From positions 90,708,001 through 90,772,000 of the forward strand of contig NC_086108.1 of the NCBI RefSeq assembly GCF_963921235.1: DNA of 64,000 bases. The letters run 5' to 3'. Shown piece after piece: positions 1,557 through 57,793 of this stretch. This DNA is from Mobula hypostoma (taxonomy: Eukaryota). The first letter of the stretch is position 1. Every line of letters starts with the position of its first letter. The position numbers were made by a program, and so were the translations under genes. The notes under the pieces were generated by a model. The model did no database searches and was not told the DNA's origin. It saw only the letters and a program-made list of their open reading frames with translations.

Positions 1557-2175
1557 TACAGGCATATGGATGAAAGAAAAACAGAGGGCTGTGTGGGAGG
1601 GAAGGGTTAGATTGATCATGAAGTAGGCTAAAGCATCAGCACAACATTGTGGGCCAAAAGGCCAATATTGTGCTGTACTGTTCTATGTTCTTTGCTCCTT
1701 CTAAGGCTGTATGTAGTTCTGAGCAAGCCTTTTAATAAGAAAAGCGCACATTTGTCCGACATCACACAAAGGGTAAATTGTCTAGTTAGCCGACAATATC
1801 AAGGACTTAGCAGTCAGTTTACATTCACGATGAAGGTGAGCATTTGTCATTTTGTGTATTTTGTATGTATGAATGTACTTTCACTATTGATCATTAATCC
1901 TGTGTGCACAAACCCTTTCTTGCTGTGTATGTATGAGTCAACCTGCAGCCAATTAACCCAGTAACAGCTGAGGTGGCAGTGAATCTTAACACAGAATCAA
2001 ATTAATTTATATCTATACAGATTAGCCAGTGTCAAAAATATATATAAGCAATAGAATTTAATATCCAAAATACCAATATTGTTTTTGGGTAACATTAAGA
2101 TGCCTAACTCTTGTCATTTGATATGCATTCTGAACCACCCAGATTTTGTTGCTCTGGGATAACACGCACAGAAGG

Positions 2176-2310
2176 CTGATGAAGGGTCTCAGTCTGAAAT
2201 GTTGACTGTTTATATCTCTCTGTTGATGCTGATTGACCTGCTGAGTTCCTGCAGCATTTTGTGTGTGTGTTACTCTGGAGTTCTAGCATCTGCAGCATCT
2301 CTTGTGTTTA
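2176..2310 (+). mobile_element. Penelope-like element terminal repeat fragment with decayed hammerhead motif
   Basis: ctgatgaagggtctcagtctgaaatgttgact followed by the gatgctg..gacctgctgagttcc..cagcattttgtgtg..agcatctgcag block shared with the PLE at 43793-46801. Confidence 0.75.
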
Positions 2311-2855: not shown

Positions 2856-5120
2856 AGAGTGACGTAGTTAATTCAGAAACAAAGGTTCTGAACTTAAAGA
2901 GGGGTAACTTTGAAGGTATGAGACATGAATTAGCTAAGATAGACTGGCAAATGACACTTCAAGGATTGACGGTGGATATGCAATGGCAGGCATTTAAAGG
3001 TTGCATGGATGAACTACAACAATTGTTCATCCCAGTTTGGCAAAAGAATAAATCAAGGAAGGTAGTGCACCCGTGGCTGACAAGAGAAATTAGGGATAGT
3101 ATCAATTCCAAAGAAGTAGCATACAAATTAGCCAGAGAAAGTGGCTCACCTGAGGACTGGGAGAAATTCAGAGTTCAGCAGAGGAGGACAAAGGGCTTAA
3201 TTAGGAAGGGGAAAAAAGATTATGAGAGAAAACTGGCAGAGAACATAAAAACGGACTGTAAAAGCTTTTATAGATATGTAAAAAGGAAAAGACTGATAAA
3301 GACAAATGTAGGTCCCCTGCAAACAGAAACAGGTGAATTGATTATGGGGAGCAAGGACATGGCAGACCAATTGAATAATTACTTTGGTTCTGTCTTCACT
3401 AAGGAGGACATAAATAATCTTCCAGAAATAGTAAGGGACAGAGGGTCCAGTGAGATGGAGGAACTGAGCGAAATACATGTTAGTAGGGAAGTGGTGTTAG
3501 GTAAATTGAAGGGATTGAAGGCAGATAAATCCCCAGGGCCAGATGGTCTGCATCCCAGAGTGCTTAAGGAAGTGGCCCAAGAAATAGTGGATGCATTAGT
3601 GATAATTTTTCAAAACTCGTTAGATTCTGGACTAGTTCCTGAGGATTGGAGGGTGGCTAATGTAACCCCACTTTTTAAAAAAGGAGGGAGAGAGAAACCG
3701 GGGAATTATAGGCCGGTTAGCCTAACGTCGGTGGTGGGGAAACTGCTGGAGTCAGTTATCAAGGATGTGATAACAGCACATTTGGAAAGCGGTGAAATGA
3801 TCGGACAAAGTCAGCATGGATTTGTGAAAGGAAAATCATGTCTGACGAATCTCATAGAATTTTTTGAGGATGTAACTAGTAGAGTGGATAGGGGAGAACC
3901 AGTGGATGTGGTATATTTGGATTTTCAAAAGGCTTTTGACAAGGTCCCACATAGGAGATTAGTGTGCAAACTTAAAGCACACGGTATTGGGGGTAAGGTA
4001 TTGGTGTGGGTGGAGAATTGGTTAGCAGACAGGAAGCAAAGAGTGGGAATAAACGGGACCTTTTCAGAATGGCAGGCGGTGACTAGTGGGGTACCGCAAG
4101 GCTCAGTGCTGGGACCCCAGTTGTTTACAATATATATTAATGACTTGGATGAGGGAATTAAATGCAGCATCTCCAAGTTTGCGGATGACACGAAGCTGGG
4201 TGGCAGTGTTAGCAGTGAGGAGGATGCTAAGAGGATGCAGGGTGACTTGGATAGGTTGGGTGAGTGGGCAAACTCATGGCAGATGCAATTTAATGTGGAT
4301 AAATGTGAAGTTATCCACTTTGGTGGCAAAAATAGGAAAACAGATTATTATCTGAATGGTGGCCGATTAGGAAAAGGGGAGGTGCAACGAGACCTGGGTG
4401 TCATTATACACCAGTCATTGAAAGTGGGCATGCAGGTACAGCAGGCGGTGAAAAAGGCGAACGGTATGCTGGCATTTATAGCGAGAGGATTCGAGTACAG
4501 GAGCAGGGAGGTACTACTGCAGTTGTACAAGGCCTTGGTGAGACCACACCTGGAGTATTGTGTGCAGTTTTGGTCCCCTAATCTGAGGAAAGACATCTTT
4601 GCCATAGAGGGAGTACAAAGAAGGTTCACCAGATTGATTCCTGGGATGGCAGGTCTTTCATATGAAGAAAGACTGGATGAACTGGGCTTGTACTCGTTGG
4701 AATTTAGAAGATTGAGGGGGGATCTGATTGAAACGTATAAGATCCTAAAGGGATTGGACAGGCTAGATGCAGGAAGATTGTTCCCGATGTTGGGGAGGTC
4801 TAGAACGAGGGGTCACAGTTTGAGGATAGAGGGGAAGCCTTTTAGGACCGAGGTTAGGAAAAACTTCTTCACACAGAGAGTGGTGAATCTGTGGAATTCT
4901 CTGCCACAGCAAACTGTTGAGGCCAGTTCATTAGCTATGTTTAAAAGGAAGTTAGATATGGCCCTTGTGGCTACAGGGGTCAGGGGGTATGGAGGGAAGG
5001 CTGGGTTCTGAGTTGGATGATCAGCCATGATCATAATAAATGGCGGTGCAGGCTCGAAGGGCCGAATGGCCTACTCCTGCACCTATTTTCTATGTTTCTA
5101 TGTTTTCTATGTTTCTATGT
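2856..5120 (+). mobile_element. 5'-truncated CR1-clade LINE (HER1-like), young copy
   Basis: Uninterrupted RT ORF, CR1-type 3' UTR and (TTTCTATG)n tail at ~5087-5120. Confidence 0.95.
2918..5011 (+). CDS. CR1 LINE ORF2, reverse transcriptase and C-terminal region (endonuclease domain lost by 5' truncation)
   Basis: 697-aa ORF with KSPGPDG, NYRPVSLTS, QHGF, YLDFQKAFDKV, GVPQGSVLGP, KFADD and RPHLEYCVQFW motifs. The frame stays open upstream of the ATG to the truncation point. Confidence 0.9.
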   Translation: MRHELAKIDWQMTLQGLTVDMQWQAFKGCMDELQQLFIPVWQKNKSRKVVHPWLTREIRDSINSKEVAYKLARESGSPEDWEKFRVQQRRTKGLIRKGKKDYERKLAENIKTDCKSFYRYVKRKRLIKTNVGPLQTETGELIMGSKDMADQLNNYFGSVFTKEDINNLPEIVRDRGSSEMEELSEIHVSREVVLGKLKGLKADKSPGPDGLHPRVLKEVAQEIVDALVIIFQNSLDSGLVPEDWRVANVTPLFKKGGREKPGNYRPVSLTSVVGKLLESVIKDVITAHLESGEMIGQSQHGFVKGKSCLTNLIEFFEDVTSRVDRGEPVDVVYLDFQKAFDKVPHRRLVCKLKAHGIGGKVLVWVENWLADRKQRVGINGTFSEWQAVTSGVPQGSVLGPQLFTIYINDLDEGIKCSISKFADDTKLGGSVSSEEDAKRMQGDLDRLGEWANSWQMQFNVDKCEVIHFGGKNRKTDYYLNGGRLGKGEVQRDLGVIIHQSLKVGMQVQQAVKKANGMLAFIARGFEYRSREVLLQLYKALVRPHLEYCVQFWSPNLRKDIFAIEGVQRRFTRLIPGMAGLSYEERLDELGLYSLEFRRLRGDLIETYKILKGLDRLDAGRLFPMLGRSRTRGHSLRIEGKPFRTEVRKNFFTQRVVNLWNSLPQQTVEASSLAMFKRKLDMALVATGVRGYGGKAGF

Positions 5121-5395
5121 TATTTCACCAGTGGGTCATTCAGCAAACCAGGTGCGTAGTCAGTGTTGAAGCTAATGCAGAGATGAACAATTTTTCTGAT
5201 GACACTGACTTTTAGTCTTTGCACTGACTGGAGTATTAATCTAGAACTATAATGTAGGTGAACACAGCTTGTAAATTAAAGTACAGCTGTTAAACTTGTA
5301 TTTGCTGATGTAATATTTGAAAAAAAAGCTTCCACAATCCTCACTGTCACTTGATTCGCTCAATGAAGGTATGCTGTAATGTTTTCTTGCAGAAA

Positions 5396-6425
5396 TACTT
5401 TGTACTTTATACTTTATTGTCACCAAACAATTGGCACTAGAACGTACAATCATCACAGCGATATTTGATTCTGCGCTTGTGGCCCTTGTGGCTACAGGGG
5501 TCAGGGGGTATGGAGGGAAAGCTGGGGCGGGGTTCTGAGTTGGATGATCAGCCATGATCATAATAAATGGCGGTGCAGGCTCGAAGGGCCGAATGGCCTA
5601 CTCCTGCACCTATTTTCTATGTTTCTATGTTTCTATGTTTCACACTCCCTGGATTACAAATATTAAATATTAAAAATTTAAATTATAAATCATAAATAGA
5701 AAATAGAAAAATGGGAAGTAAGGTAGTGCAAAAAAACCGAGAGGCAGGTCAGGATATTTGGAGGGTACGGCCCAGATCCGGGTCAGGATCCCTTCAGCAG
5801 TCTTATCACAGTTGGAAAGAAGCTGTTCCCAAATCTAGCCGTATGAGTCTTCAAGCTCCTGAACCTTCTCCCGGAGGGAAGAGGGACAAAAAGTGTGTTG
5901 GCTTGGTGGATTGTGTCCTTGATTATCCTGGCAGCACTGCTCGGACAGCGTGCGGTGTAAAGTAAGTCCACGGACGGAAGTTTGGTTTGTGTGATGTGCT
6001 GCGCCGTGTTCACAATCTTCTGTAGCTTCTTCCGGTCTTGGACAGGACAACTTCCATACCAGGTTGTGATGCACCCTAGAAGAATGCTTTCTACGGTGCA
6101 TCTATAAAAATTAGTGAGGGTTTTAGGGGACAGGCCAAATTTCTTTAGCTTTCTCAGGAAGTAAAGGCGCTGGTGGGCCTTCTTGGTAGTGAACTCTGCT
6201 TGGTTGGACCAAGTCAGGTCATTTGTGATATTGACCCCAAGGAACTTAAAGCTTTTGACCTGTTCCACTTGCGCACCACCAATGTAAATTGGGTTGTGTG
6301 GTCCGTTACATCTTCTGAAGTCAACAACCAATTCCTTCGTCTTGCTGATATTAAGCGATAGGTTATTGTCTTTGCACCATGCCACCAGGTTCTTAATTTC
6401 CTCCCTGTATTCTAACTCATCATTA
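5396..6425 (-). mobile_element. Rex1/Babar-like LINE 3' fragment
   Basis: ORF 5783-6385(-): WCKDNNLSLNISKTKELVVDFRR, FKFLGV, KKAHQRLYFLRKLKKF, LPSGRRFRS, NSFFP. AATAAA plus a short tandem tail at ~5396-5420. Confidence 0.85.
5479..5640 (+). mobile_element. Short 3'-end copy of the same young CR1, nested in the Rex1 3' UTR
   Basis: Near-identical to 4959-5120 including the (TTTCTATG)n tail; interrupts the Rex1 element. Confidence 0.85.
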
Positions 6426-6547
6426 CCATGCCTTTGATAGTTCTGGAAATATATTTACATTGCAAATCACTTTCAAATAGATGAAAGTTTTGTGGTATCT
6501 CATGCCACTGATTTTCAACACTGTGTCAGCTCATCACATTGGCATTT

Positions 6548-7055
6548 GACTTTGGAGAGGGTTCAGAGAAGATTCACGAGAATGATTCTAGGAATGAGAG
6601 GGTTACTGTATGAGGAACGTCTGGCAGCTCTTGGGCTGTATTCCCTAGAGTTCAGGAGAATGAGGGGAGATCTCATCGAAATATTCTGCATGTTAAAAAG
6701 CTTGAACAGATTAGATATGGCGAAGTTACTTCCCATGGTAGGGGATTCTAGGACAAGAGGGCACTACTTCAGGATTGAAGGTTGTCCATTTAGAACTGAG
6801 ATGCGGAGAAATTTACTTTAGTCAGAGGGTGGTAAATCTGTGGAATTTGTTGCCATGAGCAGCTGTGGAGGCCAAGTCATTGGGTGTATTTAAGGCAAAA
6901 ATAGACAGGTTCTTGATTAGCCAGGCATCAAAGGGTATGGGGTGAAGGAGGAGGAGTAGGGATGACTGGAAGAATTAGATCAGCCCATGATTGAATGGCA
7001 GAGCAGACTCGATGAGCTGAATGGCCTCCTTCTGCTCCTATATCTTATGATCTTA
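6548..7055 (+). mobile_element. CR1 LINE 3' fragment (older subfamily)
   Basis: LERVQRRFTRMI..YEERL..LGLYSLEFRRMRGDLIE..RTRGH motif with frameshift; CR1-type tail. Confidence 0.85.
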
Positions 7056-12410: not shown

Positions 12411-12507
12411 GATCTATGACATGCTTTGGACCTTATGCAGTTGAACATTACAATGGGGAACCAATAAACAGGACATGTTGGATCATCCCACATCACCCAT
12501 TAAGTAT

Positions 12508-13072
12508 AAACGCAAAAAAATCTGCAGATGCTGTAAGTCCAAAACAACATACACAAAATGCTGAAGGAACTCAGCAGGCGAGGTAGCATTCATGGAAATG
12601 AACAAGCAGTCGACGTTTCGGGCCAAGACCCTTCTTCAGAACTGAAATGGGGGACCATAAGACAGAGGTGCAGAATTAGTCTGCTCCTTCTTTCAATCAT
12701 GGCTGACCCTTTTAGTTAAGGGGAAGATGCCAGAATAAAAAAAGGTTTGGAGGTGGGAAGGAGGCTAGCTAGAAGGTGATAGGAGAAGCCAAGTGGGTGG
12801 GAAAGGTAAAGGGCTAGAGAAAAAAGGATATGATAGGAGAGGAGAGTGGACTCTAGGAGAAAGGGAAGGAGGAGGGGGTCCGGGAGGAAGTATTAGGCAG
12901 GAAAGAAGAGGTAAAAAGCCAGAATGGGGAATAAAAGAAGGACGGGGTGGATTGTTTTTTTACTGGATGGAGAAATTGATATTCATTGCTATCAGATTGA
13001 AGAGAAAGCAGACGGAATATAACCTCCTTAGTGTGGCCTCATCTTGGCACAAGGGGAGGCCGTGGGCCAACA
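12508..13072 (-). mobile_element. Penelope-like element terminal repeat (pLTR) with intact hammerhead
   Basis: Same sequence block as 43793-44290, with a small CR1-tail insertion at ~12653-12712. Confidence 0.8.
12608..12643 (-). ncRNA. Minimal type I hammerhead ribozyme motif (PLE-associated), intact
   Basis: Minus strand reads AGUU-CUGAAGA-A-GGGU(CUUG)GCCC-GAAA-CG-UC^GACU: full catalytic core, stems I and II, palindromic ACGU stem III. Confidence 0.75.
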
Positions 13073-13460
13073 TTAAACCCATTAAGCATGTCTTTGACAT
13101 GGGGAACAAATATTGGATAACCAGAAAACTATTGGATTAAATCAACCATATAATCTTCAATTCATTTTCAGATTAAATGCTTTGAGCCTTGAAGATAGCA
13201 ATCTCTGAACATGCTTCAATATGAAAAAAAATTATATTAAACCTTTGCATTTGAGATTTTAAACATTATTATTCAAACAGAGGTGTTTTAAATAAGGATA
13301 GACCATATGGGTTTCCTCCAAGTGCTTCAGTTTCCTCCCACATCCCAAACTGCATTGGTTGGTAGATGAACTGATCCAAGTGTGTAGTCGAACGGTAGAA
13401 TCTGGGGGGAGTTAAGGAGAAAAGGGGAACGTGTAAAATGGGAGTAATAAAGGATTATTA

Positions 13461-18054: not shown

Positions 18055-19765
18055 ATCTAGGCTTAGGCACTATTGATGCCATATATCAGGAGTGAATCAG
18101 AGCTAAACAAAAAGGAGAAGGAATAGCCCACGTAGCCCTTCTCACCAGCCCTGCCATTCTACAAGATCAATGCTATTTGTCTTCTTCCACTCTATATTCC
18201 TGCCCTATTACAGTTAATCTCCTGGAGCTTGTACTTTTTTTTTTGCATCTCTGGAGCGTACTGTGTAAGTAATATATGTTTGTTTTGACTCCAAATGCTA
18301 GAAATCTGGATTAACATCATTTTGCATCATTTACCATCAAGTCAGTGTTATGGGCTGAGACCCACCATTAGTTCTGATGGCGTCTTGGTCCGAAATGGTG
18401 ACTATTTCTTTCTCTTCGTAGACGCAACCAGAGTTCCTCCAGCTTTTTGTGTGTATTGCAAAGTTAATTTCTTGCAATTCAAGGAACAAAGAAAAGGACT
18501 TCAATTTGTATATCACTTTGCATAGTTTGACAATTAATTAGGTGTGTTAAATCAGTGATTTGGGCCAATAAGGTAGAACTCACACAGCAATGTTCAATTC
18601 CACATTATTGAACTTGAAATGAGTCAACACACAATGAGGCCTTCCTTTCTCTTATTCCTCAGTGCAGAGCTAGCAAAGAAGATTGTGTGGGCTGTAAAGA
18701 GGCCTGAAGTATACATTGAGATAGGACCTTGGGGATTACTGTGCCAAAGGTGGGAGTCAGAATTGTAAAGTAACTGACTGGGAAGTGGTGGAAAATGTTT
18801 GCTGGGGAGATCATGGGACACAACATAAGAACCCCAGCAAGGAAGAAGGCAACATGCGTAAGGGGTGTGAAGAAACCTCAACGGGAATGTACTCAAGGGA
18901 GATTCCATGCACCAGGATCCATAGATTTCATCTGGGTGGTCTTCTTTAAGTTGCTTAGGATCTGGGTTGCCTGCTGTTTAAAGAGCTGCTGCTGCATGAA
19001 TGAATCACACCGACTATGGCCCACACAGACACGCAAATTAATTTCAAGCAAGTGCTGTCAAAACGTGTATTGAATGCCTCTTGATGCCACTGCACATATC
19101 CAGAAACACCTGTTAGTAACCGCATCACACACACAGAAGATGCATTTGCTGTTTTATGAGAAGCGATTATGTTTTTTGATTAAATTCCTTTGCATAGCAG
19201 CAAAGAAAGCTGTGGTAAATGAAAGAAATCTTGACCTTTTGATTTTTATGTTGTAATTGGATGTAGCAATAAAATATATTTTTAAAAAATAAAGAGGAAT
19301 TCCTTCTTGACATGAGTTGAATATTGTACACCCAGTACAAAAAGTTAACATCAAAGCACCACAGTTAGAAGTTCTGTTCATTTTATAAAAATAAAACCAG
19401 GAATTGTAATTTCATTAATGCCTTCATCTTTCTTTATTCATGAGACTGCAGTGAAAAAAAGAATTGTTAAATTGGAAGTTGTATAATCTGCATCTGCCTG
19501 TCTAGCTGCTAAATTAACAATCCTCTTGTTCGGTAAATAGAAGAGTCTACTTGGCTGTAGCAATGAGATATTTTCAAATTTGCAACAAGGAGATCAAATA
19601 GGCAGTAATACCATCACATGTTTGAAATCAAACAATGTTACTTTCCAATTGGAATATCATAAGACTTCAAATGATTAAGTACTTTTCCCAAATTCATCAA
19701 TTAGAGCTCATATGAAAGAATATTTGTGTTAGTTAATAGAATATTATAATAATTAGTTTTATTAC

Positions 19766-20420: not shown

Positions 20421-23177
20421 CAAAGAAGAGAGTGGACAGAACGCAAAATATATATATATATATCCTCCCAAATAATTATGAAGATATTGCAGGAAAACAA
20501 ACGTTTTAAATTTAGACTCCAGCAGGTGAATTTATCATTTCACCACTGCCAGCAATGTGTTCTTTTTTAAATGTAACAGCTATTAGAAATCTGTAGAATT
20601 GATATTCTTCACTCCATGCCCTAATGCACAAATGTCTCAATGTGCAGGCTCACAAATTTGCATGTATTTACATAGATACAAATAATAGTACGCCAGTTGC
20701 ATAGCAACAGATGATGATGCTTTTTTGGTACATGATGTACAATGCTATGAAATGATTGCACGGAGCTTCAGATTTGATTTTTCTTTTGGGGTATTCTGTT
20801 TTATTTTGAATAAACTTATAAAACAGTGTTTTGTATAGTTTCCTGATCAGAAGCAATGCCCTTCTTCCCTTTGCAAGTCAGAATTCCTTGTTAGACATTG
20901 ACAGTAAGGTTGCTCAGTGTTTTGATTTAAGCTTTAATTCGACTGGCAGTTTCATCCCTTTGATATGGGAAGATATTAAATGGAACCCAGGTGGCTTTTT
21001 ATAGCACAAGTATCATTTGGACAGAGAATACACTTCTTGATGTAAATTTTGCCTAAAGCTGTACTTTTGTTAATATTGTTTATGTATAATAAGACTACTT
21101 AAAAGCTTTTTCTATTAAAATGAGAGACCATTGACCGGCATTAATTTCAATATTAGAAATGTTTAACTGTGGCATAATTGTATTCGCGCTTTGCACAAAG
21201 TTAGCTTGCGTTGAAATAATGAAACATTGTTGGGGATTGCAGAATAAATGCACAGACACCAAAAGTGAATTTTAGGAGGTGAAGGAGTGGAGAGAAGTTT
21301 CAGTTTGTATGTGAGAGTATGTGTGCAACGGTGTGTGGTGGGAGGGGAGGTTGCTGACAGGGTGTTGTTGGGAGGGTATTTATTGGTAGATGCTGTTAGT
21401 AAGTGTTGAAAGAAGAAGAACAAAGCACACGTACATCTAATTGGATAGAGGCAGATGAAAAGGGCATGGAAAATGTAAACTGGGACTAATATTAAAGCAG
21501 AGGCCTCTAGTTAGATCCTACCAGCACTATGTGCAATGGGATTGAAATAAGGCCATGGAGTTCTGGATGAGTGTCTTGCTTGCGTTGTTTTTTTTTTGCA
21601 TTTTATTATTGAATTATTAACCAGCTTTAACCATCCTCACTATAATTAATATCAAACATAAAGTAGAAAATTAATTGCCAGTATTAAAAAAACCTCTAAA
21701 TGCAAATGCAGTCATTAACTGGCTTACTCAAGCATCAATCGTGGCTCTGCCATATTCACGATTGCCTTTGAGTCAGATGATTCAAGTCCCACAACTAAAC
21801 CAATGTGAATCCAACTTCAGATGGAGAGGCATTTCATATGCCTGAGGCGTGCATGTGTGCACATTCAGAGTGCAGGTTGACTTGTCCACTGAAGCATATA
21901 AGAGAAAGGATCTTACATTAGCAGCTGCAGATCACAGGTTCTCCACCACTCTTACTTTGTAATGCAGCTGTGCTTTAACACAAGAATGGTCCATGATGAC
22001 ATCCTGGAAAATGAGGCCTGTTCCCCATATCTCAGGAGGCATCTTTCAATGAATGTGGAATATGATGATGAAATGCCTTCAGTGCTCTGGTGTTAGTCTG
22101 AGGGGAAAAAGAAGTGTTTCACCACAATCTCAAACCCTGCATGATAAACTGAGCAGTAGTAATTCCCCACCTTTTGGTTCGCTTCTTCAAGTCACAATTG
22201 AACTTAGTAATTATATTTAAACTTCAAGTGTATTGCAGAGCACATTAAAAAAAAATCTATTGTCCCAGACATTAGGATTTGTAGCCAATTATCTTGTCAT
22301 TATCGTGTTGTGGTTTAAGGAATCTTGTACACAAATGCATTTTCTACATTTCAACAATAAAGCTGCCTCATTAGTAATTCAGCAGCTGAAGTCATGAAAT
22401 ATATTCAGTTAGATAGTGACTTTCTAACTTTTGTTTATAACCATGGTCCCACTAATTTTGTTAAACAAGTTAACAGGAAGGCAACCTGGTAAATGTTGCA
22501 CAATATATTTATAGTGGATTTCACATAGGTGAAAATAGCACCTATTATTTCTAGTAGTTCACCTTTCCTGCTAAATATATTTTTAAATTTTGTAAAGGCA
22601 GATGTAAATATTGTTACTTCCGAATTTACTTAAGTATTTGAAGTTGACCAGCACATTGTTCTATGATTACTAATTTGTGTTTATTTTTAGTGCTGGAATC
22701 TGCTGGCAGATCTCTGAAATGGCCAGGTTATACATTTTCCTCTCTTAGTAGATCATAGTAGATGTTGTGGCAACTGGGCCTATTTTTCTTAAGCTGTAAG
22801 CAGAGGGAAATGTACTACATTGTAATTAATCTCAAGGCATGACAATATTTTTGGTATTTGTATATTAGAATATAAATAGCATATTTATTGATTCTTTGCC
22901 AGCCCTAAAAGCAAACCATATAACATGGGGCTGAAGTTGTACCTTTGCTTCTCTGAAGGAGATTTGGAGTTTTACATGGTCAAAGTCTGATAGCCAGCTA
23001 ATTAACATTTAATGAGACAACTTACAACTTGTTGTGATGGAATTTGTTCAACCAACTTTCAGTTTGTGAAGAACTTAATATCTAATGCAACAATTTAACA
23101 TAACTCACTTTTTCTGTTAGTATTAGAAGTAGCCATTTCTATTGTAAAGTTATCCATCTGCAATATTAATTAAGTGG

Positions 23178-24156: not shown

Positions 24157-24414
24157 CAGTGACCTTTTGTGTCTAATCTGGTAGTCAGATTGCTTAATAA
24201 CCAATGCCATTTCGGCATTTCTGGAATTTGCTGTTTTTATTCTAGGATGTGAATCTAATCGTATGTTATTGGGTGCCAAGCTGGAGGAGTTATTTTCTGA
24301 ATGAGGGTCAAGTAGGTATGACATCAGCTCTCTGGAGTTTGAAAGAATAATGTTGGAATCATAGGAGAGATACAACAGGGAACAAGCCCTTCAGCCCATT
24401 GAGTCTGTGCTGAA

Positions 24415-24548
24415 CACAAGAGGTTCTGCAGGTGCTGCAAAATCAGAGCAACACACACACAATTCTGGAGGAACCCAGCACGTCAGATGGCATCTATGGA
24501 AATGAATAAACAGTCGACGTTTCGGGCTGAGACCTATTATTCGGACCC
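24415..24548 (-). mobile_element. PLE terminal repeat fragment, hammerhead core decayed
   Basis: cagtcgacgtttcgggctgagacctattattcgg plus the flanking pLTR block. Confidence 0.7.
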
Positions 24549-29813: not shown

Positions 29814-31039
29814 GGGACATATTCCTTATGAGCAGCTGACCACCAAACTGTCCAAGGTTCTGAATGAACCGATTACTGTCAGACCACCATTCCTCGTGTC
29901 AGCTATAATTTCCTCACACCTTCCCACAGACCATTTCTTAACCATCACACCTTCCTCCAAGATAACTTTATCTTCCCTTTTGAAAGGGTTGCTGCAATTT
30001 TCTCAATGGAATCCCTTAGACGGCAAGATCACGCAGCCACAGCCACTTTGTTTTATTCCCCACATCAGAAACGTGTTTCATGGCCCAGAGCTTTGCTGTA
30101 CTGCGGCAGGTAATTGACACAGGGATATGGAGATGCAGTCTTGCTTGATTGAGTTCTATAGAGTCCAGACTTGGCCTCATGAGTATGGTTTCAATTTGAT
30201 GATATTAATTTTTAAACCTCCAATAAAATAGAGCCAACCCAATTACTTTCCATCTGCCCCCCCGATACTTTAGATTTAGATGTATTTATTAATCACATGT
30301 ATATTGAAACATATTATGAAATGCATCATTTGCATTACCAATCAGCACAGTCTGAGGATGTGCTGGGGGCAGCTCTTAAATGTGCCACAAATTCCGATGC
30401 CAACATAACATGACCACAATGTTCAGACAAACAACACACGGCCAACTTATAACAATCAACTGCTGCAAAACAACCCCCCTTCTCACCCCCCCACCTCTCC
30501 ACGCATGCACATAGATAGGCCTCCAGCCCCAGGGCAGGCAACCTCCAGACCATGGACTCCGGACTTCTAGACATTAGGCCCTGTGACATCCAAATGCACC
30601 AATCTTGAGCTTCAACCTCTGGACTCATTGACCTCCAAACTTGTCGACCTCTTGGCTTTGAGTTCAGGACTAACTCAGACTTTCTCAGGCTGCTCCGAAA
30701 GGCACTTATCCTCAATGTTTAGCAGTCCTGATGAAATTTGTGGCCCAAACATCAACTGAGTATTTTCCTCCATAAGTACTTCCTGACCTACTGAGTTCCT
30801 CCAGTATTTTCCACGTTGCTTGACATTCCATCATCTGCATTTTCTTGAATATCCTCAAATATTCATCTCCAACGCATTTATAGTTTGCATCCTGCACTGT
30901 GTTGTTAGGAATCCCATCTTCCAGCTCTGAAACTTTTCCCCTTGCTTTAATTCACCTCTGAGATGAATCCCTTATTGACCACTTCATTATCTCAGATTTC
31001 ACATCTGCATTGGAGCCAAGATTACACTAAGATCCATGC

Positions 31040-31500
31040 ATGCCATACAGAATTTACCCCTCCCCCTTCTCTGTTTTTCCATTTCGCATTCTGGCTCCTT
31101 CTCTTCTCCTCATTTGCCCATCACCTTTTTCCTTCTCATTTTCCTATGGTCTCCTCTCCTCTCCTATCAGATTCATTTTTTCTTCAGTCCTTTACATGTT
31201 CCATCTATCACTACCCAGTTTCTCTCTTATGGTCCCTTCCCCACCCACCCACCCACCCACCCACCTTCCCCTCACCTGTCTTCACCTATTACCTGCCCAT
31301 TTTTTTGTACTCTTTCCGCTCCCCCCCAACTTCTTGTCCTGGTTTCTTCCCACTTCCTTTCCTGTCCTAATGAAAGTTCTCAGCTGGAAATGTTGACTGT
31401 TTATTCCTCTCCATAGAAGCTGCCTGACTTGCTGAGTTGCTTCAGTATTTTCTGTTGGTTACCCTGGATTTCCAGGATCTGAGATAATCTGTGTTTATAG
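31040..31500 (+). mobile_element. Decayed PLE terminal repeat
   Basis: Pyrimidine-rich pLTR body followed by gtcctaatgaaagttctcagctggaaatgttgact (decayed hammerhead); another decayed copy at ~30724-30850. Confidence 0.7.
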
Positions 31501-37022: not shown

Positions 37023-37216
37023 TACATTTAACAAGTGTAGAAGTCCTTTCAGATAGCCTGTATATTTGAGAAATAGTTTTTGCAAATTAGCAGTCTACAT
37101 CTGTAGGCTGTAAAAAAGATTATGGAAGTATCCTACTTGTTTTAAAGATGCAAAGGACTGAACAGAACTCATACTTTGTGCATTATCATTTAATGAAACA
37201 ATGTACATTTCAATAG

Positions 37217-37324
37217 GTTTACCAGAGCCAAATAGAGATCTCATCTTTGAAGGCTTAACAGTGGAACATGGCTTCTACACATCGAAGGAATTCCTGCCCC
37301 TTGTTGCAAAAGCCAGCAAAACAG
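37217..37324 (+). CDS. DPYD: Dihydropyrimidine dehydrogenase exon (equivalent to human exon 9)
   Basis: catttcaatag|GT TTA CCA...AAA ACA G|gtagaa; 108 nt; (G)[35 protein letters not shown](G). Confidence 0.97.
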
Positions 37325-39398: not shown

Positions 39399-39602
39399 GC
39401 GTACACAAAATGCAGGAATAACTCAGTGGTCAGGTAGCATCTATGGAGAGGAATTAAGAGTTGACGTGCAGGCTGAGAACTTCTTCAGCACCATAGATCC
39501 TGATATTCTCTGTAGAAGCTGCCTGACCTTCTGAGTTCCTCCAGCATTTTGTGTTTGTTACTCTGGATTTGCAGCATCTGCAGAATCTCTTGTGTTTAGA
39601 CT
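39399..39602. mobile_element. Palindromic PLE-derived mini-element (two inverted pLTR ends) with 12-bp TSD
   Basis: acacaaaatgcaggaataactcagtggtcaggtagc...gctgcctgaccttctgagttcctccagcattttgtgt; atatattgagtg at 39387-39398 and 39603-39614. Confidence 0.75.
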
Positions 39603-41707
39603 ATATATTGAGTGATTTGGGTTTCATAGTAGAGAACTCTAAGAATAATGAATCTCATGAAGAAGAAATTCCTCCTTTTCTCATTGGTTAATGCTTTGGG
39701 TTGAAAGAAGACCCTCTATTTTTGGAAACATCCCTATATGAAGTACCATATCAAGTCTTTTCAGAATTTTGTATGTAAGATTAGATATCTTCCAAGCTTC
39801 AGTGAATAAAGGCATAGTGTGTTAAACATATCTTCACTAAAGCCTCACCAGTGATGAGAGCATAGACCACTGGAGACCATCCGGTAGTGTTCCATTCTTC
39901 TGCTGCTGAACTGTTTAAGATCGTCCTCCAAATTCAACTGATTATCGGCAACATCCCCCTCCCCCATCACCCAGTCTTTGATACTGTAGACACTGGTTTG
40001 GCTGCAAAAGAACAGTCGGACAGAAAAGATACCTAGTCAGCAAGCACAAGCATGAATAACATGATGCAAAATCTAATAAGCATGCTTTTATTTATAGAGT
40101 TTATTTAGAGTGTTGATTGTGGTTGGTTTGACTTTTGGTTTTATATCAGGTTGATGCTATGGTAGTCAGTAATATTAGGGAGATGACCTGTAGGACTATT
40201 GATGAAAGCAGAAGTGGCTTGTGCTTACCAGCAGAACATTCAGATGAGTTGTTCCCCATATAATCTGGACAAGGTGGCCTTGTCCTTTCCTCTCCCTTGT
40301 CCTGTGTTTACTCTTCCACTATAATTGGTGGCATGTTAGCGTAGTGGTTAGCATAATGCTTAACACCACCATTGACCAGTATTCAATTCCTGCCGCTGTC
40401 AGTAAAAGGTTTGTACATTCTGGCCATGACTGGTGTTTTTTTTTCCTGATTGCTCCAACTTCCTCGCATTGACATTGCAAAGATGTATGGGTTGTAGGTT
40501 GTGGGCTCTCTTGGCAGTGGAAGCAGGGCACCACTTGTGGCCTGCCCCAGCACACTCTCACACTGTGTTGATCATTGACGTAAATGACGCCTTTCAATGT
40601 ACCTGTGACAAATAAAGCTAATCTTTTAAAATCTGCTGCTTGTGCTCATGATGCTCGGTCACAATGTGTGCCCCTGCATAATGGTGAGATTTTCTATCAT
40701 GTGCAGGGGTGTACACCAGAGCCATGTTCCAAGGTGTTGGCAGGTGCCACTTCTTTTCCTGCTACTACTTTGTGGTTTGTACGTATGCAGCTCAATTTTT
40801 GACTGATGCAGAATTAAAGTATCATACTTGCAACTGACCTTTATAATTTGCAGCCCTTGATAATACATGAGCTGATTGTTGAGAGAATAGAATGCTTCCT
40901 TTAGTTCATGCATAAGCCATGGTTGACGTGTTTGACCTGTGAAGCAATAGGTGTGAATCCAATGTAGCATGAAAGTGCTTACAATCATAATAAAGCCACA
41001 TATTGCTTCCTGTAAGGGAGAATAAAATGCGGTTTGGATGGAGGATCTCAACAACTTATAAGAACAGATGCTGGAAATCCAGTGCAATATTACCTGGATT
41101 TCAAAGGTGATGCTTCCAAACTAGAAGGAGACAAGTGTGTAGAGGTGTACAGTCACGGTCATCTTGACAGCCACTTACAGAGGAATCCCTGCCCAGTTTT
41201 GTGGCTTCAGCTGGCAGATTTTATTCAAAGTGCCTTGTCACACAAGTGTCTTGAGCGTTGTTGCTTGCTGAGGTTTAGGGTTGTTTCCTAGACACCTACA
41301 CTGCGTATGGCCTCTTTCTGACAAACCTGATCCCCTTCTACACCCCCTGCGTTCAAATATTTTCCCATGCTGCCTGCGTTCATTTCCCAATCCCTTCTTT
41401 ATGCGGTATTCCTGCAGAATACTTGCTAATGCAGCCAGTTTATGCAGTGTCCTCAGGGTCTTTCAGTTTTTGCCACACAGAGCCCCACAGACTCCAGAAT
41501 ATTTAAAGTGCTTCATAAAGCACCGGCGACCTCTGTAATCATAGTAAGTCCCATTAGCAGTCAGATAGAAACTGGTCTGGGAGAAACTGTTGATCTCTTT
41601 AAATTACGCAAACACGAGGAATTCTGCAGATGCTGGAAGTTCAGGCAACACACATCAAAGTTGCTGGTGAACGCAGCAGGCCAGGCAGCATCTCTAGGAA
41701 GAGGTGC

Positions 41708-41743
41708 AGTCGACGTTTCGGGCCGAGACCCTTCGTCAGGACT
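41708..41743 (-). ncRNA. Minimal type I hammerhead ribozyme motif, intact
   Basis: Minus strand AGUC-CUGACGA-A-GGGU(CUCG)GCCC-GAAA-CG-UC^GACU. Confidence 0.8.
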
Positions 41744-42198
41744 AACTGAAGGAAGAGCTAGTAAGAGGTTTGAAAGTGGGAGGGTGAGGGGGAGATCCAA
41801 AATGATAGGAGAAGACAGGAGGGGGAGGGATGGAGCCAAGAGCTGGACAGGTGATTGGCAAAAGAGATATGAGAGGATCATGGGACAGGAGGCCCAGGGA
41901 GAAGGAAAAGGGGGAAGGGGGGGAAAACTCAGAGGGGGGGCAAGGGGTATAGTCAGAGGGACAGAGGGAGATCTCTCCTGTCCCTCTGACTATACCCCTT
42001 GCCCACCCTCTGAGTTTTCCCCCCCTTCCCCCTTTTCCTTCTCCCTGGGCCTCCTGTCCCATGATCCTCTCATATCTCTTTTGCCAATCACCTGTCCAGC
42101 TCTTGGCTCCATCCCTCCCCCTCCTGTCTTCTCCTATCATTTTGTATCTCGCCCTCCCCCTCCCACTTGCAAATCTCTTACTAGCTCTTCCTTCAGTT

Positions 42199-42234
42199 AG
42201 TCCTGACGAAGGGTCTCGGCCCGAAACGTCGACT
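42199..42234 (+). ncRNA. Minimal type I hammerhead ribozyme motif, intact, sense to DPYD pre-mRNA
   Basis: AGTC(42199-202) CTGACGA(42203-09) A GGGT CTCG GCCC(42211-22) GAAA(42223-26) CG TC^ GACT(42231-34); predicted cleavage after C42230. Confidence 0.8.
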
Positions 42235-42441
42235 GCACCTCTTCTTAGAGATGCTGCCTGGCCTGCTGCGTTCACCAGCAACTTCGATGTGTGTTGCATC
42301 TCTTTACATTATACTTTTTTGCTGCTGAGCACAAACATAATAATGTAAGTTAAGAGGGGGCATCATCTGGAGCTCTGAGAATTGTATGTTGTAAAATTAG
42401 CATTATACACCAGTCCTCTAGTCCAATTAACATTATACTCC

Positions 42442-42576
42442 AGCCCTGCCAAAGGGTTTCGACCTGAAACGTCGACTGTACCCTTTTCCTAGATGCTGCC
42501 TGGCCTGCTGAGTTCCTCCAGCATTTTGTGTGTGTTGCTTGGATTTCCAGCATCTTCAGATTTTTCTCGTTTGTGA
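42442..42576 (+). mobile_element. PLE pLTR end with partly decayed hammerhead
   Basis: agccctgccaaagggtttcgacctGAAACGTCGACT: CUGANGA core broken, GAAACGUC^GACU retained. Confidence 0.75.
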
Positions 42577-42787: not shown

Positions 42788-42957
42788 GAGTGTGCGCCTG
42801 TCAGGCTGGTCTGCCATCAATGCAAGGCACAGTCGTCGTACTTGGTGCTGGAGACACTGCCTTTGACTGTGCAACATCTGCACTACGCTGTGGAGCTCGC
42901 CGTGTGTTTGTGGTTTTTAGAAAAGGATTTACCAATATCAGGGCTGTCCCAGAGGAG
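42788..42957 (+). CDS. DPYD: Dihydropyrimidine dehydrogenase exon (equivalent to human exon 10; NADPH-binding [10 protein letters not shown] motif)
   Basis: tttgttttctttcag|GA GTG TGC...GAG GAG|gtaaaa; 170 nt; [56 protein letters not shown]. Confidence 0.98.
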
Positions 42958-43792: not shown

Positions 43793-46700
43793 AAACACAA
43801 GAAGAGCTGCAGATGCTGGAAATCCAAGCAGCACACACAAAATGCTGGAGCTACTCAGAGGCCAGGCAGCATCTATGGAAAGGAGTAAACATTTGATGTT
43901 CCAGGTCCAGACCCTTCTTCAGAGCTGAGAGGGAAGGGGGTGATGCCCAAATTAAGTGGTGTTGGGAGAGGAAAGAGGCTAGCTGGAAAGTGATAGATGC
44001 AGCCAGGTGTGTGGGAAAGGTCAAGGGCTGGAGAAGAAAGAATCGCATAGGAGAGGAGAGTGGACCATTGGAGAAAGGGAAGGAGGAGGGGACTGGGGGG
44101 ATGTAATGGACAGTGAGAAGAAGTAAAAGCTTAGACTGGGGAATAAAGGAGGGGGTGGGTGGATTTTATTCACTGGAAGGAGAGATCAATATTCATACCA
44201 TCAGGTTGGAGGGTACCCAGATAGGATATAAGCTGTTGCTTCTCCATCCTGAGGGGGACCTCATCTTGGCACAAGAGGAGACAGTGACGGATTGACATGC
44301 CGTGGGAATGGGAATAGGAATTAAAATGTTTGGCCACCGGGAAGTCCTGCTTGTGCAGATGGTGCGAAGATGCTGGACGAAGCAGTCCCTCAATTTAGGA
44401 TGAGTATCACCAATGTAAAGGAAGCCACATTGGGACCACCAGACATAAAATACTACCCCAGCAGATTCACAGGTGAAGTGTTGCCTCACTTGGAGGGTCT
44501 ACCTGGGACTCTAGATGGAGGTGAGGGAGGAGGTGTATGGGCAAGTGTAGCACTTAGGTTGCATGCAAGGATAAGTGCCTGATAGGAGATTAGTGGGGAG
44601 GGAGCGAATGGATTAGGGAAATGCGGAGGGAGTGAATGGATTAGGGAAATGCGGAGGGAGCGAATGGATTAGGGAAATGCGGAGGGAGTGATCTGTATGG
44701 AAAGCTGAGTGGGGGGGGGAAGGAGGTGAAGATATGTTTAGGGGTAGGGTCCATTTGGAGATGGCAGAAGTTGTAGAATATATTATGTTGGATTCAGAGG
44801 CCGATGCGGTGGTTAGTAAGGATAGAAGTGACTCTATCACTATTACAAGCAGGGAAGATGGTGTAAGCACAGATGTATGGGAAATGGAGGAGATATGGGT
44901 AAGGGCAGCATCAGTAGTAGAGGGAGAGAAACCCTGTTCTTTAAGGAAAGAGGACAGGTAAGATATCGCGGAATGTTCTACCCCCACTCCAAGGTTGACA
45001 AACTGTCCGGGTAGGCCTATTGTCTCTGCCTGCTCCTGCCTCACTGAATTTGTGTCCTCGTATCTCGATTCTAATCTTTCTCCTTGGTTCAGTTCCTTCC
45101 CACCTACATCCACGATAGTTCTTGTGCCCTCAATCTTTTCTATAACTTTCAATTCCCTAGGCCCTGACCGCCTCAACTTCACCATGGATGTTCAGTCCCT
45201 ATGCACTTCTATCCTCCATCATAAAGGCCTCAAAGTCCTCTCCTTATTCCTTGACAGGAGAACCAACCAATCCCCCTCCACCTCCACCCTTCTCTGTCTG
45301 GCAGAACTGGTCCTCACCCTGAACAGTTTTTCCTTTGGCTCCTCCCACTTTCTCCAAACCTGAGGGATAGCCATGGACACTCATATGGGCCCAAGCTTTG
45401 CCTACTTCTTCGTTGGCTATGTAGAACAGTCAATGTTTGAAGCCTCCCCGGTTATACTTCCCAACTCTTCCTCTGCTACATTGACAACTGAATTAGTGCT
45501 GCTTCATGTGTCCATACTAAGCTCATCAATTTCATTAACTTTGCCTCTAACTTCCACCCTACCGTTAAATTCACTTGGACCATCTCTGACACTTCCCTCG
45601 CTTTCTTGATTTCTCTACCTCCATCTCTGGAGACAAAGTGTCAACCGATATCTCTTATAAAACTACTGATTCCTATGGTTATTTTGACTATATCTGCTCA
45701 CACTCTATCTCCTGTAAACATCCTATTCCCTTTTCTCAGATTTTTTGCCTCAGCTACATGTGTTCTCAGGATGCGGCTTTCCACTCCAGGACATCAGAGA
45801 TGTCCTCCTCCTTTAAAGAACAAGGTTTCTGTTCCTCTACTATTGATGCTGCTTTCACCTGTATCTCCTCCATTTCCCATACATCTGTGCTCACCCCATC
45901 TTCCCTGCTTTGTAATAGTGATGGAGTCCCTCTTGTACTTATCTACCACCCCATCAGCCTCTGTATCCAACACATTATCCTCTGCAGCTTCCACCATTTC
46001 CAAAGGGACCCTACCACTAAGCATATCTTTATCTACCCTCTACCCCGCCCCCCATCCGCTTTCCACAGGGATCACTCCCTCCCGATTCCTTTGTCCATTT
46101 GTCTGATCCCTCTAATCTCCCTCCAGGAACTTATCCCTGTAAGCGAATACACCAACACCTACCTATACTCGTCCTCGCTCACCTCCATTCAGAACGCCAA
46201 ACAGTTCTTCCAGGTGAGGCAACACTTCACACGTGGATCTGCTGGGGTGGTCTATTGTGTCCTTTGCTCCCGAAGCAGCCGCCTCTACGTCGCTGAGACC
46301 CTTCGTAAATTGGGGGACTGCTTCATCGAGCACCTCCGCACCACCTGCCACAAACTAGACTTTCGGGAGGCCAGACATTTTAATTTAGATTTCCTTTCCA
46401 GTTCTAATATGTTGATCCACGGCTTCCTCTTGTGCCAAGATGAGGCCACCCTTAGTGTGGAGGAGTAATACCTTATATTCCATCTGGGTACCCTCCAACC
46501 TGATGGCATGAATTCCACCCCCCTTCCCTATCCTCAGTTTACCTCTTACTTATTCTCACCTGCCTATTTTTCCCCCGGGTTCCCTCCTCCTCCCTTTTCT
46601 CCTATAATGCATTCTCCTCTACTATCTGATTCTTTCTTCTCCAGCCCTTGTCCTTTCCCATCAACCGGGCTTCACCTATCACCTTCCTGCCAGCCTCTTT

Positions 46701-46801
46701 CCCCTCCCCCCCACCATTTAATTCATCTCCCCACTTCCCTCTCAGTCTAATGAAGGGTCTCAGCCCAAAAAGTCGACTGTTTACTCCTTTCCGTAGATGC
46801 T
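43793..46801. mobile_element. Decayed Penelope-like retroelement with inverted 5' segment (minus arm ~43793-44960, plus arm ~44975-46801)
   Basis: PLE RT motifs (GRPIVSACSC, FTMDVQSL, LAELVLTLNSFSF, AMDTHMGPSFA) and GIY-YIG endonuclease motifs (QHFTRGSAGVVYCVLCS..LYVAET.RKLGDCFIEHLR..ARHFN) on +. The GIY-YIG segment also occurs on - (44193-44489). pLTRs with decayed hammerheads at ~43890-43927(-) and ~46744-46779(+). Confidence 0.88.
44597..44690. repeat. 28-bp tandem repeat, 3 copies plus a partial, inside the PLE
   Basis: ggagggagYgaatggattagggaaatgc repeated. Confidence 0.85.
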
Positions 46802-49044: not shown

Positions 49045-49970
49045 CAAGTCAACACACACAAGAAGCTGGAGGAGCTCAGCAGGTCAGTCAGCATCCATGG
49101 AAATGCAAAAAACAGTTGACGTTTTGGGTCGAGACCCTTCTTCACAGTGGGAAAGGTAGGGGTAATACACCGGAATATAAGGTGGTGGGAGGGTAATGAG
49201 GATAGCTAGAAGCTGATAGGTGAAGCCAGGTGGGTAGGAAAGAATCTGATAGGAGAAGCGAGTGGACCATCAGGCAAAGAGAAGGAGGAGGGGCACCAGG
49301 GTGATGTGATAGGCAGATGAGAAGAGCTAAGAGGCTAGAGTGGAGAATAGAAGCTCGGGGGGAGAGAATTTTTTTTTACCAGAAGCAGAAACTGATTTTC
49401 ATACCATCTGGTTGGAGGTTACCCAGACAGAACATAAGGTTTTGCACTTCCACCCTCAGGGTGATCTCATGGACCAAGAGGAGGCCATGGACCAACATGT
49501 CAGAACGGGAATGGGAATCAGAATTAAAATGTTTGGTCACTGGGAAGTTCCATTTTTGGCGGATGGAGCGAAGGTGCTCGACGAAGTGGTCCCCCAATTT
49601 ATGTTGGGTCTTACCAATATAGAGGAGGCCACATTGGGACACGAGACACAATAGACAGTGCTTCATGTAGATGCGCTTAGTGGTGGGGAGAGCTTTACCT
49701 GTGATGGTATCCACTACTTTTTGTGGGATTTTCCATTTAAGGACATTGGTTTTTCCATACCAGGCCGTGATGCAGCCATTCAATGTACTCTCCACTACAC
49801 ATCTATAGAAGTCCCCTCTGTCCACCTTCTTGTTCCGATTTCTTTTCCCTTCCTTTCCAGTCTCCATGGAAACATAGACTATTTATTCCTCACCTTTGCT
49901 GCTACTGCATCTGCTGAGTTCCTTCAGTGTTTTGTGTGTATTGCACTGGATTTCCAGCATTTTGGTCTCT
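49045..49970. mobile_element. Composite: PLE pLTR and GIY-YIG fragment (-), Rex1 fragment (-), pLTR end (+)
   Basis: ORF 49376-49867(-) joins Rex1-type FYRCVVESTLNGCITAWYG to PLE CGLLYIGKTQHKLGDHFVEHLR; decayed hammerhead at ~49114-49147(-). Confidence 0.7.
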
Positions 49971-57536: not shown

Positions 57537-57793
57537 GCAACACACGGACAATGCTGGGGGGACTCAGCAGGTCAGGAAGCATCTATGGAAAAGAGTACAG
57601 TCGACATTTCGGGCCAAGACCCTTCAACAATCAAGAGTCTCAGTCCAAAAAGTCGACTGTACTCTTTTCCATAAATATGCTGCCCAGCCCAAAATGTTGA
57701 CTGTACTTTTTCCCATAGATGCTGCCTGACCTGCTGAGTTCCTCCAAGTATCATTTTGTGTCTGACACTTGGATTTCCGGCATCTGCAAATTT
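57537..57793. mobile_element. Palindromic PLE-derived mini-element joined at the hammerhead cores, with an internal duplication
   Basis: gtacagtcgacatttcgggccaagacccttc-aacaatc-aagagtctcagtccaaaaagtcgactgtac; flanked by tctcttgtatctccaa at 57521-57536 and 57794-57809. Confidence 0.75.

What the first reader, a model, noticed from the sequence alone, without database searches (positions are those of the whole stretch)
12608..12643. Dispersed family of minimal hammerhead ribozymes in Penelope-like terminal repeats, with an extra A in the core
Seen directly: the motif AGUY-CUGANGA-A-GGGU(CUYG)GCCC-GAAA-CG-UC-GACU is intact at 12608(-), 41708(-) and 42199(+). Decayed copies lie near 2176(+), 18370(+), 24512(-), 30724(+), 31364(+), 39458(-), 42442(+), 43890(-), 46744(+), 49114(-) and 57598(both strands). 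It has the hammerhead core (CUGANGA, GAAA, GUC cleavage triplet), a 4-bp stem I, a 4-bp stem II with a tetraloop, and a stem III reduced to the palindrome ACGU. Established: PLE pLTRs carry minimal type I hammerheads whose palindromic stem III makes them cleave as dimers, and an extra A between A9 and G10.1 is known from the CChMVd viroid hammerhead. Inference: this genome holds a very large population of such ribozymes, invisible to ORF-based annotation.
Basis: partly seen in the sequence, partly recalled or inferred. Interest (0 to 1): 0.75.

Follow-up and report, generated by a model that had tools for sequence, protein, structure and literature searches.

The report
Penelope retrotransposon minimal hammerhead debris
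The motif is real and sits in the end repeat of a very abundant Penelope-type jumping gene; it is an already described kind of tiny hammerhead RNA, predicted to cut itself only slowly, and the scattered copies are likely inert leftovers copied from RNA that had not been cut.

Summary
Confirmed but known. The 36-nt motif is intact at 12608(-), 41708(-) and 42199(+); all listed decayed copies are there, far above chance. It lies in the terminal repeat of a Neptune-type Penelope element (hammerhead - RT/GIY-YIG ORF - hammerhead, about 3.5 kb). The no-loop palindromic helix III and the extra base between positions 9 and 10.1 are defining features of the published minimal PLE hammerhead (Cervera and de la Pena 2014), so neither is new. 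The population is large (53,589 exact 32-mers), but young copies show no significant core conservation and no compensatory changes. Insertions therefore likely copy uncut RNA that may begin just before the ribozyme. Cleavage was not testable. The scan noted this family, and the front-edge pile-up, before on other DNA of this and other genomes.

The parts
12608..12643 (-). Minimal type I hammerhead, core intact, in an old (O1-type) 5'-truncated PLE copy; antisense to the host gene
   Evidence: passes the structural descriptor
12487..12607 (-). PLE tail downstream of the ribozyme
   Evidence: self-BLAST to many other copies; tail profile hit
12718..13073 (-). Decayed end of the PLE ORF and 3' UTR of the same copy; separated from the ribozyme by about 70 unrelated bases
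   Evidence: 74% to 43934-44286; 12970-13065 aligns to the ORF end of a full-length unit; sequence
41602..42297 (.). One head-to-head twin insertion of a young PLE end (97% inverted repeat, arms ending at the long and the short tail site), flanked by a 9-bp target duplication at 41593-41601 and 42298-42306
41708..41743 (-). Intact hammerhead, left arm of the twin
42199..42234 (+). Intact hammerhead, right arm; in the sense intron RNA all 36 bases are predicted to pair with the other arm
42442..42477 (+). Decayed copy of the old O2 subfamily, with C at position 6 of the core
43891..43926 (-). Decayed hammerhead at the 3' end of an RT-thumb/GIY-YIG remnant (44179-44975)
46743..46778 (+). Decayed hammerhead at the 3' end of an RT/GIY-YIG remnant (45004-46513), head to head with the previous copy
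49114..49149 (-). Decayed hammerhead downstream of a GIY-YIG remnant (49388-49660)
2172..2207 (+). Decayed copy
18340..18403 (.). Two decayed copies head to head (18340-18375 minus, 18370-18403 plus)
24512..24547 (-). Decayed copy
30724..30757 (+). Decayed copy
31363..31398 (+). Decayed copy
39459..39491 (-). Decayed copy, short twin insertion
57599..57658 (.). Decayed twin copies (57599-57634 minus, 57623-57658 plus)
42790..42957 (+). Context: exon of the host dihydropyrimidine dehydrogenase (DPYD) gene; the preceding exon lies near 37210-37325
   Evidence: residues 322-376 of DPD, E 1.6e-28; upstream exon by motif

Best explanation
The motif is the minimal type I hammerhead in the terminal repeat of a Neptune-type Penelope-like retrotransposon, likely a slow ribozyme that would need a partner copy or the element's protein to cut, and the scattered copies are likely inert insertion stubs that were probably reverse-transcribed from uncut RNA. 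Shown by sequence: the unit (hammerhead, about 165 nt, RT + GIY-YIG ORF, 3' UTR, hammerhead, tail; period about 3.5 kb); two clusters of 3' ends about 65 and 100 nt past the cut site; 5' ends that pass the cut site and pile up at -5 to +10. Inferred: the element's protein starts cDNA at the two tail sites, as shown for an anole element; the RNA often begins a few bases before the ribozyme (an initiator-like TCAGTT lies there), so priming at the first tail gives 100-140-nt stubs and priming from both target ends gives head-to-head twins; cutting, if it occurs, acts on a minority of master transcripts (trimming read-through RNA, turnover or translation) and is not the step that makes the template.
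For: [quoted passage not shown] Three window copies sit at the 3' end of RT/EN remnants. 3' ends of 88 young copies: 49 at +81 to +107, 39 at +126 to +149, none between, as with the two RT starts of PAc (PMC11167929). 5' ends: 152 of 159 extend past the cut site, 2 end at +32 to +34 (both at inverted junctions), 40 end at -5 to +10 (2.0-2.3% per nt against 0.1-0.5% further upstream); among the 92 without an inverted partner 0 end at +31 to +36 and 17 at -5 to +10. PAc: ribozyme needs the protein, catalytic mutants still insert, uncut RNA is the main substrate, no RNA-seq ends at the cut site. Minimal PLE hammerheads cut poorly even as dimers; 1 of 9 Xenopus dimers cut. Neutral-looking decay of young copies. 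Monomer folds into a rod in which GACG of the core pairs with CGUC at the cut site (-11.9 against -7.9 kcal/mol for the hammerhead fold); the hammerhead dimer (-14.7) is far above the dimer minimum (-32.1).
Against: The 36 nt are kept as a block across subfamilies whose flanks differ: majority bases of the young, O1 and O2 groups differ at only a few sites, mostly CpG decay, and contigs of four organisms break off at exactly 42199 and 42233-42235. This says the motif matters in master elements. An uncorrected count showed fewer core changes than flank changes (0 of 360 against 74 of 3,853) and the corrected stem count is borderline (15 against 22.5, P 0.06). No RNA start was observed; the pile-up is a ramp, not a sharp peak, and cDNA fold-back in the hairpin would also give it. 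Six elements begin 240-1,090 nt upstream of the first hammerhead, so not all templates start there. The sample comes from the first 10.6 Mb of one contig and counts both arms of some twins.
Confidence: 0.62

Rival explanations
1. Cut-and-circle model: two hammerheads in a tandem transcript cut as a dimer, the unit is ligated to a circle, and the RT copies round it; the cut site is crossed because it was re-ligated.
For: Proposed in PMC4209133. Explains more-than-unit insertions (6 elements with 240-1,090 nt of extra upstream repeat) and why cDNA crosses the site. In 4 of 6 elements the own 3' repeat is the nearest or joint-nearest to the 5' repeat.
Against: A circle has no end, so it does not explain the pile-up at -5 to +10 unless by fold-back. 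No variant was private to both repeats of any of the 6 elements, and in L037 the 5' repeat is nearer to another element (2 differences) than to its own 3' repeat (7) (star-like tree, little power).
Confidence: 0.15
2. The motif no longer needs to cut in this lineage and is kept for another role: an internal promoter, a splice-acceptor context or a protein-binding hairpin.
For: A subfamily with A6C amplified (14 of 23 O2 copies; 385 exact matches); A6C cripples cleavage in Mg2+ in other hammerheads (PMC7151607). The largest subfamily has G10.1-U11.1. Naiad PLEs thrive without canonical hammerheads (PMC8557442).
Against: All other core bases stay fixed in the three groups; G10.1-U11.1 occurs in 8 of the 56 published representatives; the related PAc ribozyme does cut with its protein.
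Confidence: 0.15
3. One reading: tens of thousands of dispersed copies are working ribozymes that cut host transcripts, for example as dimers between copies in one intron.
For: 53,589 exact 32-mers; 64 of 159 young copies keep core and stems by a loose test; many lie in introns, as here.
Against: No significant conservation or covariation among copies; most are single, so have no near partner; of the three intact window copies two are antisense to DPYD and the third is predicted to be fully paired with its inverted arm; low activity of this class.
Confidence: 0.06

Closest known systems
Minimal hammerheads (min-HHR) of metazoan PLE pLTRs (Cervera and de la Pena 2014, PMC4209133)
   Same: CUGANGA + one extra base + stem II + GAAA + palindromic 15.2-16.2 without loop + UH; short stem I; in both terminal repeats and dispersed as single truncated copies. 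The Acropora Neptune row has the same layout (CUGACGAA, 4-bp stem II with tetraloop, CG, UC).
   Different: No cartilaginous fish among the 56 rows of Fig. S3. Copy number is higher (53,589 exact, against about 4,000 and 9,000 reported for coelacanth and Xenopus) and the sequence is uniform rather than highly variable; stem II is at the short end.
Neptune clade of EN+ Penelope-like elements (features as summarised in Craig et al. 2021, PMC8557442)
   Same: C-terminal GIY-YIG, CX2-5CxxC linker, DKG motif, partial tandems, inverted 5'-truncated partner, one-sided 30-40-bp tail, hammerhead near the 3' end.
   Different: No tree against reference PLEs was built, and Nematis shares the linker, so the clade is assigned by motif only.
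PAc (Poseidon of Anolis; Frangieh et al. 2024, PMC11167929)
   Same: Two internal RT starts that give the tail; uncut RNA as template; no ends at the cut site.
   Different: In PAc the ORF starts inside the ribozyme; here the first ATG of the long frame lies about 130 nt past it. A pile-up of 5' ends at the ribozyme's front edge is not in the parts read.
Non-LTR retrozymes (bioRxiv 10.64898/2026.07.22.740005; one chondrichthyan sampled)
   Same: Type I hammerhead derived from PLE pLTRs; dispersed monomers.
   Different: Retrozymes are tandem non-coding repeats; here the copies are truncated ends of an autonomous element, single or head to head.
CChMVd viroid hammerhead with extra A (De la Pena and Flores 2001; title seen in a reference list only, content recalled)
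   Same: Extra nucleotide between 9 and 10.1.
   Different: Full hammerhead with a stable helix III in a plant RNA replicon; unrelated context.

Membership tests
PLE minimal hammerhead (min-HHR) | Core CUGANGA ... GAAA ... UH | tested here: met
   O2 subfamily departs at A6
PLE minimal hammerhead (min-HHR) | Extra nucleotide between 9 and 10.1 | tested here: met
   A in 95 of 96 young copies; listed as conserved in PMC4209133
PLE minimal hammerhead (min-HHR) | Palindromic 15.2-16.2, helix III without loop | tested here: met
   ACGU in all 8 descriptor hits of the unbiased sample plus window
PLE minimal hammerhead (min-HHR) | G10.1-C11.1 pair | tested here: inconclusive
   met at the three window copies; the commonest genomic form is G.U (45,022 against 8,567), a form also seen in 8 of 56 published rows
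PLE minimal hammerhead (min-HHR) | Located in both terminal repeats of a PLE | tested here: met
   8 of 20 long-ORF loci have one on each side of the ORF
PLE minimal hammerhead (min-HHR) | Covariation in stems I and II within the genome | tested here: not met
   no double change in 8 pairs over 96 young copies; stems are the same in the three subfamily groups, so there is little variation to test
PLE minimal hammerhead (min-HHR) | Self-cleavage as dimer or with protein | not testable with these tools
   only contigs of uncertain RNA status were available
EN+ Penelope-like element | Single ORF with RT and C-terminal GIY-YIG | tested here: met
   1,043-aa frame of L032: RVT_1 E 2e-5, GIY-YIG E 0.002, both below Pfam's cut-off; L004 GIY-YIG above it; motifs
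EN+ Penelope-like element | Partial tandem pLTRs, inverted truncated partner, optional tail | tested here: met
Neptune clade | Zn-finger-like CX2-5CxxC linker between RT and EN | tested here: met
   CX4CxxC at residue 910 of the L032 frame; feature as
Neptune clade | RT phylogeny with reference Neptune elements | not tested
   no reference set was fetched
Non-LTR retrozyme | Tandem short non-coding units each with a hammerhead | tested here: not met
   window copies are single or head to head; same-strand pairs in fetched loci are separated by PLE ORF sequence or kilobases; no genome-wide search for tandem arrays was made

The most novel reading that the evidence does not exclude
This genome is a natural experiment on what the PLE hammerhead is for: the element's RNA starts at the ribozyme's front edge, is copied uncut, and the family has amplified hundreds of thousands of times through masters with weakened cores (A6C, then G10.1-U11.1 plus an N7=C inhibitory helix). 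The hammerhead would then be a 5' leader device kept mostly switched off, not a tool for making the insertion template.
Probability: 0.3. Interest if true: 0.5.

Novelty: new member of a known kind. Interest (0 to 1): 0.2.

Why it matters
As a ribozyme it adds one lineage and a high copy number to a class described in 2014; the extra A and the loop-less helix III are already part of that description. What is useful is the record left by the insertions: the role of the PLE hammerhead is still stated as unclear (PMC8557442), and here the genomic ends say that the template is uncut and often stops at the ribozyme's front edge, in line with the one in vitro system. Three natural core versions in one family make the catalysis question cheap to test.

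Tried and rejected
Rfam scan: no hammerhead family match at E<=1. Sequencing runs: no RNA holder listed on record, all contigs; they cannot show starts, ends or strand, so say nothing on expression or cleavage. Splicing at the branch-point/CAG site just upstream of the ribozyme: no joint there among the 15 best-supported of 186, and no constant upstream exon at the genomic 5' junctions; not shown, not excluded. Preferential core conservation among young copies: looked real, fell to P 0.24 after matching base composition and setting shared variants apart. Register shift that would pair the extra A with U11.1: predicted less stable than G.U (-1.1 against -2.3 kcal/mol). C11.1U as plain CpG decay: rejected, since it stands at 55 of 94 copies while the other CpG sites of the motif decay at 66 of 757 and 23 of 23 repeats of long-ORF elements carry it. 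Circle versus linear template by repeat identity: inconclusive. Other hammerhead families in the fetched 1.57 Mb: none clearly distinct by the descriptor. PDB: no relative of the ORF. Old window ORF fragments gave no Pfam match and were identified by tblastn. Lunse et al. 2017 is not held; file 1 of the 2014 supplement and the preprint's supplements were not seen and may list chondrichthyan motifs.

Full report
Observation. The motif is present as described at 12608-12643(-), 41708-41743(-) and 42199-42234(+). All 12 listed decayed strand-sites align to it, and 12 ungapped matches of at least 24 of 36 letters stand against 0 in each of 30 shuffles. A tail profile that ignores the ribozyme found 91 hits in 60 arbitrary 10-kb stretches, which scales to roughly half a million remnants; 19,504 of those 600,000 bases align to one full unit. 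A structural descriptor found 5 complete motifs in the same 600 kb and 3 in the window, 0 in each of 10 shuffles. Rfam does not detect it. The window overlaps a DPYD gene on the plus strand. That the host is a cartilaginous fish is my recall and the wording of earlier scan notes; I did not test it.

What carries it. Sequence upstream of exact copies encodes RT and GIY-YIG fragments. A search with an RT fragment gave 34,278 candidates, 150 scored; I fetched 20 of these, chosen mostly for long open frames. Eight have a hammerhead on each side of the ORF, about 3.5 kb apart. [quoted passage not shown] In the window, the copies at 43891, 46743 and 49114 sit at the 3' ends of such ORF remnants, and 12608 follows a decayed ORF end. 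41708 and 42199 are the arms of one head-to-head insertion with a 9-bp target duplication. The target copy at 12608 belongs by its flanks to an old subfamily and lies antisense to DPYD.

Comparison with print. Cervera and de la Pena 2014 (PMC4209133; main text parts 1-2 of 4, supplement file 2 parts 1-2 of 3) define a minimal hammerhead without helix III or loop 3 and list the extra nucleotide between 9 and 10.1 and the palindromic 15.2-16.2 among its conserved features; they found thousands per genome and only low cleavage in dimers. Their 56-row alignment holds the same layout (for example Acropora Neptune) and no cartilaginous fish. A 2026 preprint (parts 1-3 of 5) searched one chondrichthyan for tandem retrozymes with canonical and minimal models and saw cleavage in 1 of 9 Xenopus dimers. 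Frangieh et al. 2024 (parts 1-2 of 4) showed two internal RT starts, a protein-assisted ribozyme, and insertion from uncut RNA. Seen as passages only: PMC6765202, PMC6155905, PMC3088659, PMC2377424 (Penelope has an internal promoter and a 5' intron), PMC13725137 (self-cleavage can aid translation). PMC7151607: abstract and results. Lunse et al. 2017 was not held. Searches listed no paper that, by title or abstract, describes this family or the 5'-end pattern; the library lacks most subscription papers and Repbase.

Subfamilies. The commonest exact form has U at 11.1: 45,022 against 8,567. It is a lineage change, not CpG decay: 55 U against 37 C in 94 tail-anchored copies, while the other CpG sites of the motif differ in 66 of 757 cells; 23 of 23 repeats of the long-ORF elements have it (these were picked with one RT query and may favour this lineage). 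Depth-weighted contigs show 66% and 68% U in two organisms and 16% in a third; the fourth was too shallow. G.U at this pair is not new: 8 of the 56 published rows have it. An older group carries C at position 6 in 14 of 23 classified copies (385 exact matches), a change that strongly lowers Mg2+ cleavage in other hammerheads. Otherwise the 36 nt stay the same across groups whose flanks differ, and contigs of older relatives break off at exactly the two edges of the motif. So the motif is constrained in master elements, yet tolerates weakening changes.

Selection among copies. In 96 young copies picked by the tail, rare non-CpG changes numbered 8 in the core against 10.9 expected from base-matched flanks (P 0.24) and 15 in the stems against 22.5 (P 0.06); no stem pair showed a double change. 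An earlier unmatched count had suggested core conservation.

Ends. Young copies were picked by three exact tail patterns (64,413, 10,911 and 7,608 matches); 150 listed places, all from the first 10.6 Mb of contig C1, gave 160 copies, 159 mapped. 3' ends (first 88 copies) fall in two groups, 49 at +81 to +107 and 39 at +126 to +149 (+1 is the first base of stem I, the cut lies between +32 and +33). 5' ends: 152 of 159 reach past the cut site, 2 end at it, 40 end at -5 to +10, and the rate drops about five- to tenfold upstream of -5; the pattern holds in the 92 copies without an inverted partner. The window of the peak was chosen after seeing the first batch, and twins are counted by arm, so the P value of that call is descriptive. 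An initiator-like TCAGTT and a branch-point/CAG acceptor-like stretch both lie at -5 to -1 (consensus motifs recalled). A start of transcription there is the simplest reading; cDNA fold-back in the hairpin is the alternative. Six elements start 240-1,090 nt further upstream and need read-through or circular templates; repeat identity could not decide.

Folding. With C at position 7 the monomer is predicted to form a rod that pairs the core with the cut site (-11.9 against -7.9 kcal/mol); the hammerhead dimer is possible (-14.7) but far from the minimum (-32.1). At 12608, N7=A removes this helix and the hammerhead-like fold is the minimum. The one intact sense copy, 42199, is predicted to be fully paired with its inverted arm.

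Verdict. A real, very abundant, new member of a known kind. The extra A is not a novelty, and the dispersed copies look inert. The worthwhile residue is the genomic evidence that insertions come from uncut RNA ending at the ribozyme's front edge, and three natural core versions to assay. I reached the end pattern, before reading earlier scan notes that report the same on other DNA; those notes are unchecked and are not counted as support. Interest 0.2.

Noticed in passing
window 42177-42198 (+) and L034:6346-6365 (-): Branch-point-like TACT(A/C)AC, pyrimidine tract and CAG directly upstream of stem I; in older subfamilies the AG is the first two bases of stem I. D. virilis Penelope has its intron end at the same place.
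   Followed up: partly
window 43790-46810: Old head-to-head pair of long PLE remnants joined near 44975-45004, each ending in a decayed hammerhead.
   Followed up: partly
window 41645-42297: The 97% inverted repeat would form a 650-nt hairpin in the DPYD intron RNA, a likely ADAR substrate; it draws the miRNA-type Rfam matches.
   Followed up: partly
window 2858-5011 (+): 717-aa open frame of a CR1/L2-type LINE reverse transcriptase (RVT_1 E 6e-34); many shorter fragments of such LINEs in the window.
   Followed up: no
window 23148-24184: About 1 kb of low-complexity purine/pyrimidine repeat, open in several frames.
   Followed up: no
L030 (oriented 3261-6650): 1,130-aa frame that joins a LINE RT fragment in frame to the PLE ORF, probably a nested insertion.
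   Followed up: no
L045 (oriented 3878 and 7268): Upstream hammerhead has C11.1 and the downstream one U11.1; the upstream one looks like a separate short twin insertion.
   Followed up: partly
L255, L283: Twin insertions that turn round exactly at the ACGU palindrome of helix III.
   Followed up: no
window about 12649-12717 (-): About 70 unrelated bases interrupt the 3' UTR just upstream of the target ribozyme.
   Followed up: no
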